From the NCBI GenBank assembly GCA_020773975.1, contig GCA_020773975.1_3638.1: a stretch of 64,000 nt of DNA; one strand, written 5' to 3'. Origin of the DNA: a phage. The notes beneath the pieces are model-generated. The model worked only from the letters and a program-made list of their open reading frames with translations, did no database searches and had not been told where the DNA came from. Of this stretch, positions 31,297 to 35,133 are shown in pieces; within the stretch, counting starts at the first letter, position 1, and every line of letters begins with the position of its first letter. The translations under genes were made by a program, and so were the position numbers.

Positions 31297-31301
31297 CCAA
31301 T

Positions 31302-31398
31302 GCTGGGTAAGCCCCTTGGCAAGGGCGAGGATTTATAATCCTGAAAATAGACGGGCTAGCCGTTGAATACATAGGTGGTTCGATTCCATCGCCCAGCT
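31302..31398 (+). tRNA. Atypical tRNA-like gene (~97 nt; canonical acceptor and T-arm, anticodon not confidently assignable)
   Basis: Acceptor gctgggt/gcccagc and T-arm ggtgg-ttcgatt-ccatc are canonical; the central region holds the palindrome aggatt-TAT-aatcct and a hairpin acgg-gctag-ccgt. Confidence 0.35.
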
Positions 31399-32420: not shown

Positions 32421-32493
32421 GGGAGTGTAGATCAGTTAGTAGATCGCTCGACCGATAATCGAGAGGACGTAGGGGCAGAGCCTACCACTCCCA
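32421..32493 (+). tRNA. tRNA-like, apparent anticodon GAT (Ile), with non-canonical T-loop (possible pseudo-tRNA)
   Basis: Acceptor gggagtg/cactccc, anticodon arm ctcga-ccGAUaa-tcgag (C33), T-arm gtagg-GGCAGAG-cctac lacks the TTCRA consensus. Confidence 0.4.
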
Positions 32494-33256: not shown

Positions 33257-33336
33257 AATGAGAGTAGCGTAACTTCACTGGGTGAAGGCTGGCCTCCAAA
33301 ACCAGTGACTAAGAGGTTCGATTCCTCACTCTCGTG
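33257..33336 (+). tRNA. Non-canonical tRNA-like gene with apparent 8-bp acceptor / 4-bp T-stem, 6-bp D-stem; possible anticodon CCA
   Basis: Hand fold: acceptor atgagagt/actctcgt, D hairpin cttcac-tgg-gtgaag, anticodon arm gctgg(c)-cuCCAaa-(a)ccagt, T-arm gagg-ttcgatt-cctc. No CCA encoded. Confidence 0.35.
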
Positions 33337-33931: not shown

Positions 33932-33953
33932 CCAAAATATTCTGGTTCTTTGA

Positions 33954-34041
33954 CCGAGTGGTCGATGGTGACGGCCTGTTAAGCCGTTGGGAGGAATCTC
34001 CCCACCGAAGGTTCGAATCCTTCAGGAACCGCCAATTCTTG
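33954..34041 (+). tRNA. Class II (Ser-like, long variable arm, G73) tRNA carrying apparent anticodon GTT (Asn codons)
   Basis: Acceptor ggttctt/aggaacc, D-arm acc-gagtggtcgat-ggt, anticodon arm acggc-cuGUUaa-gccgt, variable hairpin gggag-gaat-ctccc, T-arm gaagg-ttcgaat-ccttc, G73, CCA encoded. Confidence 0.5.
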
Positions 34042-34446: not shown

Positions 34447-34520
34447 GGGCGATTGATGGAATTGGTATACATGTCAGGCTTAGAACCTGAATTTTGGGGG
34501 TTCGAGTCCCTCATCGCCTA
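34447..34520 (+). tRNA. Class I tRNA with apparent anticodon TAG (Leu codon CUA) but no long variable arm; A73
   Basis: Acceptor gggcgat/atcgcct, anticodon arm tcagg-cuUAGaa-cctga, 5-nt variable loop, T-arm ggggg-ttcgagt-ccctc, CCA encoded. Confidence 0.5.
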
Positions 34521-34528
34521 CCAATCAT

Positions 34529-34601
34529 GTGACGGTAACTCAGTTGGTAGAGTGCCTTGCTGAAGACTAGGTGGTCACAGGTTCGAACCCTGTCCGTCAC
34601 A
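34529..34601 (+). tRNA. tRNA-Phe (anticodon GAA)
   Basis: Acceptor gtgacgg/ccgtcac, D-arm actc-agttggta-gagt, anticodon loop cuGAAga, T-loop ttcgaac, CCA encoded. Confidence 0.7.
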
Positions 34602-34610
34602 CCAAATTAT

Positions 34611-34686
34611 TGCAGAGTGGTGGAAATGGATTTACCATGTTAGGTTCATACCCTGAAGATTGCAGGTTCGACTCCTGCCTCTGCAT
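34611..34686 (+). tRNA. Second CAT-anticodon tRNA (Met or Ile2)
   Basis: Acceptor tgcagag/ctctgca, anticodon arm ttagg-uuCAUac-cctga, T-loop ttcgact, CCA encoded. Confidence 0.6.
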
Positions 34687-34707
34687 CCAAGAATAAGAGA
34701 GAGTATT

Positions 34708-35133
34708 TTGAAAATATGTGGTTGTTGTAATAAATTAAAGGATTTCTCTGAGTTTAGTAAAAAATCAGCAGCAAAAGACGGTTATGCAAGTAAATGTAAA
34801 GAGTGCCACAATAACTATGTTAGAACTAAATGGTATCCTAGGAATAAAAAGAAGCACATCTCTTCCGTAGCTAAATATAAGAAGCTAAACCCTTATAAAA
34901 TAATTTCACATAGGTATGGTATACCAGAAGATATTGTTGAAAATATAATGTCAAAAGGTGAATGCGAGATTTGTGGCTCAACAGAAAATCTTGTTTTTGA
35001 TCATATACATCTGACAAATACTGCTAGAGGATGTCTTTGTACTCTATGTAATATAATGATTGGAAGATTGGGTGATACGAACGAAGAGATTTTAGAAAAA
35101 CTCCCTAAAATTTTAGCCTATGTAAGTAAATAA
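34708..35133 (+). CDS. Endonuclease VII-like (HNH/His-Cys box) nuclease, possible freestanding homing endonuclease
   Basis: C-terminal VFDHIHLTNTARGCLCTLCNIMIG matches the T4 endonuclease VII family signature. Probable TTG start after the GAGAG RBS; the ORF-track start overlaps the tRNA. Confidence 0.5.
   Translation: MKICGCCNKLKDFSEFSKKSAAKDGYASKCKECHNNYVRTKWYPRNKKKHISSVAKYKKLNPYKIISHRYGIPEDIVENIMSKGECEICGSTENLVFDHIHLTNTARGCLCTLCNIMIGRLGDTNEEILEKLPKILAYVSK

What the first reader, a model, noticed from the sequence alone, without database searches (positions are those of the whole stretch)
34447..34520. Class I tRNA with a leucine anticodon (UAG) lacking the long variable arm
The fold is a standard 74 nt class I cloverleaf (5-nt variable loop) with A73, yet the anticodon loop CUUAGAA gives anticodon UAG (codon CUA), which normally belongs to class II tRNA-Leu. 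Together with 33954-34041 this suggests the array contains tRNAs whose body type and anticodon are mismatched, possibly anticodon-switched copies.
Basis: partly seen in the sequence, partly recalled or inferred. Interest (0 to 1): 0.5.

Follow-up and report, generated by a model that had tools for sequence, protein, structure and literature searches.

The report
Phage leucine tRNA without long arm
This is a real, conserved phage tRNA that reads leucine codons but lacks the long extra arm that bacterial leucine tRNAs normally carry; it keeps every feature the E. coli leucine-charging enzyme is reported to need, and it belongs to a large family of such tRNAs in phages that the searched literature does not describe.

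Summary
Window 34447-34520, with an encoded CCA to 34523, is a 74-nt tRNA with anticodon UAG, a 5-nt variable loop (AUUUU) and A73 (ARAGORN; Rfam tRNA 60.7 bits).

The interpretation as a body/anticodon mismatch or anticodon-switched copy is not supported for this gene. The body is a tRNALeu body minus the arm. Its D region matches E. coli tRNALeu best (15/20; most other isotypes 11 or fewer). It carries the reported E. coli LeuRS identity set: A73, U8:A14, A15:U48, G18G19, A20a.

Among about 970 tRNAs in related phage arrays, this D arm at 18/20 or better occurs only with Leu anticodons (UAG, UAA, CAA).

The short form is widespread in Vequintavirinae, T5-like phages, Vibrio and Aeromonas phages and many uncultured viral contigs. 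Covariation is strong (98.7% paired; 13 of 20 pairs with compensatory changes).

Most likely it is charged with leucine by host LeuRS and supplies CUA/CUU/CUG decoding for a 40% GC phage. Charging is inferred, not shown. It is a new member of the known type-I tRNALeu kind, of moderate interest.

The parts
34447..34520 (+). Class I (type I) tRNALeu(UAG), 74 nt up to discriminator A73
   Evidence: ARAGORN; Rfam RF00005 at 60.7 bits; 100% identical in Escherichia phage Av-05.
34521..34523 (+). Genome-encoded 3' CCA
   Evidence: Sequence. CCA is encoded in most family members.
34447..34453 (+). Acceptor stem 5' strand, pairing with 34513-34519; the first pair is G1.U72
   Evidence: All 7 acceptor pairs show compensatory changes across 26 homologues. 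Phage TH18 has C72 instead of U72.
34454..34473 (+). U8 G9, the tRNALeu-type D arm (A10-U25, U11-A24, G12-C23, G13.A22; loop A14 A15 U16 U17 G18 G19 U20 A20a U21) and G26
   Evidence: Identity to E. coli Leu(CAG) and Leu(UAA) is 15/20, versus 11 or fewer for most other isotypes. At 18/20 or better, this arm occurs only with Leu anticodons among about 970 phage tRNAs.
34474..34490 (+). Anticodon arm; loop C32 U33 U34 A35 G36 A37 A38; anticodon UAG at 34481-34483
   Evidence: Four of 5 stem pairs covary. Position 37 is A, whereas E. coli leuW has G37.
34491..34495 (+). 5-nt variable loop A44 U45 U46 U47 U48; U48 can pair with A15
   Evidence: U48 was present in 42/42 class I sequences in a scan that did not fix the loop sequence.
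34496..34512 (+). T arm, GGGGG UUCGAGU CCCUC
   Evidence: U54, U55, C56 and A58 are present for the D/T-loop tertiary pairs.
34513..34519 (+). Acceptor stem 3' strand
34529..34604 (+). Neighbouring tRNA-Phe(GAA); the order Leu-(Val)-Phe-tRNA(CAU) is shared with Cronobacter phage GAP31

Best explanation
This is a functional phage tRNALeu(UAG) that has lost the long variable arm but kept the rest of the bacterial tRNALeu recognition surface. Host LeuRS, which ignores both the anticodon and the arm, would charge it with leucine through A73 and the D-loop and tertiary core: U8:A14, A15:U48, G18G19, A20a and the D/T-loop pairs. It would then decode CUA and CUG, and also CUU if U34 is modified as in the host. 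These codons are far more used by this 40% GC phage than by E. coli. Shown here: the gene, its fold, its conservation and covariation, its Leu-type body, and the codon-usage difference. Inferred: aminoacylation with Leu, U34/A37 modification status, and the benefit to the phage.
For: The gene and fold are supported.

The family is under purifying selection on the class I cloverleaf. Across 26 distinct sequences, 98.7% of cells are paired. Thirteen of 20 pairs change on both sides. The covariation score is 0.734 against 0.224 for shuffles (0/500 reach it) and 0.143 or less for slid registers.

A73 is invariant, and U8, G9, A14, G12 and G13 are invariant in columns not fixed by the search pattern. 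U48 is 42/42 and A73 is 42/42 in a second scan that did not fix them.

The reported E. coli LeuRS identity set is A73, A15-U48, G18G19 and A20a, with the D/T tertiary pairs. The long arm and the anticodon are not part of it, and variants lacking the arm stay active (Giege & Eriani 2023, PMC9976931).

The D region is closest to E. coli tRNALeu. The same body is tied only to Leu anticodons UAG, UAA and CAA in phage arrays.

CUU plus CUA make up 36.6% of Leu codons in window ORFs, against 14% in an E. coli sample.

The short form has class-specific core changes: A10-U25 in 40/42 and U21 in 41/42, versus G10-C25 and G21 in class II relatives. This indicates an adapted lineage, not sporadic deletion mutants.
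Against: No aminoacylation or expression data exist for this tRNA or any close homologue.

Fan et al. 2019 (PMC6614811) state that E. coli LeuRS charges only type II tRNALeu. It failed on the Streptomyces type I tRNALeu(CAA). That tRNA has C48, so it cannot form A15:U48.

The E. coli LeuRS C-terminal domain contacts the arm tip in the crystal complex, so charging efficiency may be reduced.

Position 37 is A. The host CUN-reading tRNALeu genes examined have G37.

The experimental amber-suppressor note in the T5 record concerns T5's own Leu(UAG), which turned out to be class II at 85 nt. It therefore does not test the short form.
Confidence: 0.8

Rival explanations
1. Loss of the arm is adaptive. 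The class I shape, and the altered anticodon loop (C32, A37, A38), would let the phage tRNALeu escape a host or phage nuclease or other factor that recognises class II tRNAs or the host Leu anticodon loop. Leucine decoding would then survive when host tRNALeu is attacked. This adds to the best explanation and does not replace it.
For: Variable-region length was bimodal, at 5 versus 11-16 nt. Human SLFN11 cleaves type II tRNAs. Bacterial Schlafens are anti-phage tRNases (PMC13056530). Phage tRNAs are known to evade anticodon nucleases through loop changes (reference cited). The Sf14 study notes the CTTAGAA loop against host TTTAGGT. In Marinicella marina a lone copy sits just upstream of an RtcB RNA ligase gene.
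Against: No bacterial nuclease specific for class II tRNAs or for tRNALeu was found in the searched literature. The one bacterial Schlafen characterised cuts the anticodon stem of several tRNAs. Many phages keep class II Leu(UAA) beside class I Leu(UAG). A37 is shared by the class II phage copies.
Confidence: 0.1
2. One reading: an anticodon-switched copy of some other class I tRNA, charged with a non-leucine amino acid and mis-decoding or recoding CUA.
For: The overall shape is class I. G1.U72 is slightly unusual. The array does hold a class II tRNA with an Asn anticodon.
Against: The D arm is Leu-type and unlike any other E. coli isotype except weakly Trp at 13/20. The body is found only with Leu anticodons. 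A73 and A15:U48 are conserved. There is no G3:U70. From established identity rules, UAG is not the recognition anticodon of any anticodon-reading synthetase.
Confidence: 0.04
3. A decaying or non-functional tRNA gene, that is, a deletion mutant of a class II tRNALeu.
For: G1.U72 wobble in this copy. The gene is not annotated in the Av-05 or TH18 records.
Against: The sequence is identical in Av-05, and homologues occur across several phage families with fully compensated stems. CCA is retained. The Rfam score is typical of the neighbouring tRNAs.
Confidence: 0.03
4. A real tRNA that host LeuRS cannot charge on its own, so that a phage factor or another enzyme is needed.
For: Fan et al. 2019 report that E. 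coli LeuRS does not charge a natural type I tRNALeu.
Against: That substrate lacks A15:U48. Minimal E. coli tRNALeu variants without the arm are charged. No synthetase-like gene was noticed near the array, although the rest of the window was not screened.
Confidence: 0.03

Closest known systems
E. coli class II tRNALeu (leuW UAG, leuT CAG, leuZ UAA)
   Same: A73, U8:A14, A15:U48, G18G19 and A20a in a 9-nt D loop, a 3-bp D stem with G13.A22, G9, and a GGGGG/UUC.A.U T arm. D-region identity is 13-15/20.
   Different: There is no 13-15 nt variable arm. Position 37 is A, not G. The loop is C32/A38, not U32/U38. The core has A10-U25 and U21, not G10-C25 and G21. The acceptor has G2-C71, not C2-G71.
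Streptomyces coelicolor type I tRNALeu(CAA) (Fan et al. 2019, PMC6614811)
   Same: A bacterial-system tRNALeu with a 5-nt variable loop that coexists with class II tRNALeu and a single LeuRS.
   Different: The Streptomyces loop is ACAGC (C48), the anticodon is CAA, the gene is chromosomal, and E. coli LeuRS does not charge it. The phage family has U48 with A15 and lives in phages of Gammaproteobacteria.
Animal mitochondrial tRNALeu
   Same: Short variable loop; identity rests on A73 and A14.
   Different: It is an organellar tRNA with its own LeuRS, and no sequence relationship is implied.
Class II phage tRNALeu(UAG) of T5 and Pseudomonas phage JG004
   Same: Same anticodon loop type (CUUAGAU or CUUAGAA, with A37), a Leu-type D arm, and the same slot after tRNA-Ala in T5-like genomes.
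   Different: They keep a 13-nt variable arm. The T5 copy has been converted to an amber suppressor according to its record; the short form has not.
Other class I tRNALeu lineages in phages (Shigella phage Sf14 Leu UAG/CAA/UAA; GAP31 Leu UAA)
   Same: 77-79 nt, A73, A15 and U48. The published tRNAscan-SE isotype scores rank Leu first for all three Sf14 genes.
   Different: Only 43-49/77 identity to the window tRNA. They have an ordinary 4-bp D stem, so those isotype scores do not transfer directly.

Membership tests
Bacterial tRNALeu as recognised by E. coli-type LeuRS | Discriminator A73 | tested here: met
   A at 34520. Invariant in 26/26 and 42/42 family members.
Bacterial tRNALeu as recognised by E. 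coli-type LeuRS | U8:A14 and the A15:U48 trans-Levitt pair | tested here: met
   U8, A14, A15 and U48 are present. A14 is invariant and A15 is at 90% or more in columns not fixed by the pattern. U48 is 42/42 when not fixed. The determinants are listed in PMC9976931.
Bacterial tRNALeu as recognised by E. coli-type LeuRS | G18G19 placement and A20a in the D loop; G18:U55, G19:C56 and U54:A58 | tested here: met
   The D loop AAUUGGUAU differs from E. coli leuT and leuW (AAUUGGUAG) only at its last base, position 21. The T loop is UUCGAGU. Conservation in the family is partly forced by the search patterns.
Bacterial tRNALeu as recognised by E. coli-type LeuRS | Long variable arm (class II architecture) | tested here: not met
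   The loop is 5 nt, AUUUU. The arm is a hallmark of the family, but it is reported not to be an identity determinant for E. coli LeuRS.
Bacterial tRNALeu as recognised by E. coli-type LeuRS | G37 (m1G37) in CUN-reading isoacceptors | tested here: not met
   Position 37 is A. E. coli leuW and leuT have G37. A37 is also found in class II phage Leu(UAG) genes.
Bacterial tRNALeu as recognised by E. coli-type LeuRS | Actual leucylation by LeuRS | not testable with these tools
   This needs an aminoacylation assay or charged-tRNA sequencing.
Type I (class I) tRNALeu, as in mitochondria and Streptomyces | Leu anticodon, short (4-5 nt) variable loop and A73 in a canonical cloverleaf | tested here: met
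Canonical tRNA (Rfam RF00005) | Score above the gathering threshold with a full-length match | tested here: met
   60.7 bits against a threshold of 29, model positions 1-71.
tRNASer-like class II body (to exclude serylation) | Long variable arm plus G73 | tested here: not met
   There is no arm, and the discriminator is A73.

The most novel reading that the evidence does not exclude
Phages of Gammaproteobacteria have evolved and spread a dedicated arm-less tRNALeu lineage, with anticodons UAG, UAA and CAA. Its class I shape and altered anticodon loop would make it invisible to host or competitor factors that target class II tRNAs or host tRNALeu, while it is still charged by host LeuRS. That would be a structural immune-evasion strategy at the level of tRNA architecture.
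Probability: 0.1. Interest if true: 0.7.

Novelty: new member of a known kind. Interest (0 to 1): 0.42.

Why it matters
[quoted passage not shown] The only bacterial exception found in the searched literature is one Streptomyces isoacceptor, and E. coli LeuRS was reported not to charge it.

A large natural family of arm-less tRNALeu in phages of E. coli and its relatives would be a ready-made test of which features LeuRS really needs in vivo. It would also explain why annotation pipelines still call these genes Leu. It could supply compact tRNALeu scaffolds for engineering.

It also bears on why phages carry tRNAs: codon supply against defence evasion.

Tried and rejected
- **BLAST against E. 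coli genomes.** Sensitive blastn of the 77-nt gene against all complete E. coli genomes gave no hit. I therefore fetched E. coli K-12 tRNA genes by coordinate and compared them segment by segment.
- **Single-sequence folding.** The minimum-energy fold did not give a cloverleaf for the window copy. I relied on alignment-based folding and pair counts instead.
- **T5 suppressor data.** I hoped the T5 RefSeq note that an anticodon replacement converts this tRNA into an amber suppressor would be in vivo evidence for the short form. T5's own Leu(UAG) is an 85-nt class II tRNA. Only other T5-like phages have the short one.
- **Larkin et al. 2002.** PMC115294 is not held, so its result is cited through the 2023 review.
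- **Sf14 isotype scores.** The published tRNAscan-SE scores concern a different class I lineage, only 43/77 identical. They are supportive, not a direct test. tRNAscan-SE itself is not available here.
- **Literature searches.** Searches for a description of class I tRNALeu in phages found none. This is absence in the held library only.
- **Bacterial-genome hits.** Most are MAG contigs with phage-like tRNA arrays. They are not good evidence for a cellular version.

Full report
**What is there**

ARAGORN finds 15 tRNA genes on the + strand between 29.4 and 34.7 kb of the window. One is tRNA-Leu(tag) at 34447-34523. Rfam's tRNA model matches 34447-34520 over its full length at 60.7 bits, in the same range as the neighbouring tRNAs.

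Read from the sequence, the gene is GGGCGAU UG AUGG AAUUGGUAU ACAU G UCAGG CUUAGAA CCUGA AUUUU GGGGG UUCGAGU CCCUC AUCGCCU A CCA. The anticodon is UAG, the variable loop has 5 nt, the discriminator is A73, and CCA is encoded.

**Where the window comes from**

The region is 94-96% identical to Escherichia phages Av-05, TH18 and relatives in the Vequintavirinae. Those records do not annotate their tRNAs, but they carry the same array. The Leu gene is 100% identical in Av-05. TH18 differs only at position 72, with C instead of U.

**Is it a one-off?**

No. Sensitive BLAST of the 77 nt finds full-length, gap-free homologues annotated tRNA-Leu in these groups:
- Cronobacter phage GAP31, Klebsiella phage KB57 and Salmonella Seunavirus phages
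- Vibrio phage Thalassa and Aeromonas phages
- many T5-like phages

A strict pattern scan of IMG/VR gave 48 contigs and 32 distinct sequences, some from contigs over 270 kb.

In an alignment of 26 distinct sequences, the class I cloverleaf is 98.7% paired. All 7 acceptor pairs and 4 of 5 anticodon-stem pairs show changes on both sides. The covariation score is 0.734, against 0.224 for shuffles (0 of 500 reach it) and 0.143 or less for slid registers. RNAalifold predicts the same structure independently. The gene is thus a member of a conserved, selected family, not a broken copy.

**Is the body mismatched to the anticodon?**

I fetched E. coli K-12 tRNA genes covering all 20 isotypes and compared segments.
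- The D region (positions 8-26) matches Leu(CAG) and Leu(UAA) at 15/20, and Leu(UAG) and Trp at 13/20. All other isotypes score 11 or fewer.
- The D loop AAUUGGUAU matches that of E. coli leuT and leuW (AAUUGGUAG) except at its last base, position 21. It includes the extra A20a and the 3-bp stem closed by G13.A22.
- Across about 970 tRNAs predicted in the phage arrays fetched here, identity of 18/20 or more to this D region occurs only with anticodons UAG, UAA and CAA. The best non-Leu tRNA scores 17/20.
- Several arrays carry the very same class I body (UGAUGGAAUUGGUAUACGUG, loop AUUCU or AUUUU, A73) with CAA or UAA anticodons.

Natural anticodon swaps therefore stayed within the leucine box. 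That fits an enzyme that does not read the anticodon.

**Identity elements**

According to the 2023 identity review (PMC9976931), E. coli LeuRS depends on these features:
- A73
- the A15-U48 trans-Levitt pair
- G18G19 and A20a in the D loop
- the D/T-loop tertiary pairs

The anticodon and the long arm are not determinants, and truncated tRNALeu without the arm remains active.

All of these elements are present in the window gene. In scans that did not fix the relevant columns, A73, A14, U8, G9, G12 and G13 were invariant and A15 was at least 90% conserved. U48 and A73 were each 42/42.

The one caution is Fan et al. 2019 (PMC6614811). E. coli LeuRS did not charge the Streptomyces type I tRNALeu(CAA). 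That tRNA has the loop ACAGC, so C48, and cannot form A15:U48.

**How common is the short form?**

A looser scan fixed only the Leu D loop, UUAGA and the start of the T arm, and allowed any variable-region length. Among the 122 matches, 70 had a 5-nt loop. The rest clustered at 11-16 nt, with almost nothing in between.

The short form also has its own core signature: A10-U25 in 40/42 and U21 in 41/42. Class II relatives mostly have G10-C25 and G21. This suggests a core re-fitted to class I geometry.

T5 itself has a class II Leu(UAG) of 85 nt at the slot after tRNA-Ala, whereas other Tequintaviruses have the class I gene there. The stems differ, so this looks like replacement rather than simple deletion.

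A second, unrelated class I Leu lineage exists in Shigella phage Sf14 (three genes of 77-79 nt) and in GAP31. Published tRNAscan-SE isotype scores rank Leu first for all three Sf14 genes.

**Likely use**

The window is 40% GC. In 72 long ORFs, CUU is 27.8% and CUA 8.8% of Leu codons. A sample of E. coli genes gives 10.2% and 3.8%, with CUG at 54%.

From established knowledge, the host tRNALeu(UAG) is a minor species whose cmo5U34 reads CUA, CUG and CUU. A phage copy would supply exactly the under-served codons. Whether U34 is modified in the phage tRNA is unknown.

Position 37 is A, as in every phage Leu(UAG) seen here including class II ones. The host CUN-reading tRNALeu genes have G37. The Sf14 study also notes the CTTAGAA loop against host TTTAGGT.

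**Why lose the arm?**

This is not answered. Genome economy, relaxed constraint, or escape from factors that recognise class II tRNAs are all possible. Human SLFN11 cleaves type II tRNAs, and bacterial Schlafens are anti-phage tRNases. No bacterial enzyme with class II specificity was found, so I give the evasion idea about 10%.

**Known or new?**

Homologues are annotated simply as tRNA-Leu in public records. Five searches of the held literature found no description of class I tRNALeu in phages. Type I tRNALeu as a kind is known from mitochondria and Streptomyces.

I therefore file this as a new member of a known kind. The interest is moderate: it contradicts a textbook generalisation and is easy to test, but the most likely function is ordinary.

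Noticed in passing
window 33944-34034 (+): A 91-nt class II tRNA with anticodon GUU (Asn), discriminator G73 and a 19-nt variable arm. It is conserved in Av-05, TH18, GAP31, 4MG and PVP-SE1, with compensatory changes in the arm stem and acceptor stem. Other phages and E. coli have ordinary class I tRNAAsn. Whether AsnRS (GUU plus G73) or SerRS (long arm) charges it is open. This is the more puzzling of the two odd tRNAs in the array.
   Followed up: partly
window 34611-34689 (+): A 79-nt tRNA with anticodon CAU, discriminator U73, U1-A72, an 11-nt D loop and a D region 17/20 identical to that of the Leu tRNA. Its identity (Met, Ile2 or other) is unclear. The TH18 copy has a diverged 3' half. 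Its 3' end is overlapped by the start of an ORF at 34660-35133 whose C-terminal Cys/His pattern looked HNH-endonuclease-like by eye; no domain search was run.
   Followed up: partly
window 32421-32493, 33262-33333, 31301-31398 (+): Rfam tRNA-clan matches that ARAGORN did not call: RF00005 at 53.4 bits, and two weak tRNA-Sec-model matches at 34.4 and 25.9 bits, below threshold. These may be additional or degenerate tRNA genes in the array.
   Followed up: no
L061 870-946 and 1065-2270 (Marinicella marina scaffold_1): This is the only hit in an isolate genome. A lone class I tRNALeu(UAG) of this family lies about 120 nt upstream of an RtcB RNA ligase gene (Pfam E=3e-129), with a terminator-like hairpin before the tRNA. 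The other six bacterial-genome hits are on MAG contigs, four of them (L055, L056, L058, L060) with 6-31 tRNAs per locus, which looks phage-like.
   Followed up: partly
L007, L015, L020, L022, L034, L044, L048, L053, L005 and others: Many environmental phage tRNA arrays, and Vibrio phage Thalassa, carry a 91-99 nt tRNA called Ile(UAU). That is far longer than a class I tRNAIle, so it has an intron or a long arm.
   Followed up: no
L070 31624-31708 versus L004 2997-3073: Within Tequintavirus the Leu(UAG) slot after tRNA-Ala holds a class II gene in T5 and a class I gene in saus47N, DT57C, AKFV33 and others. The stems are unrelated, which suggests gene replacement within one genus.
   Followed up: partly
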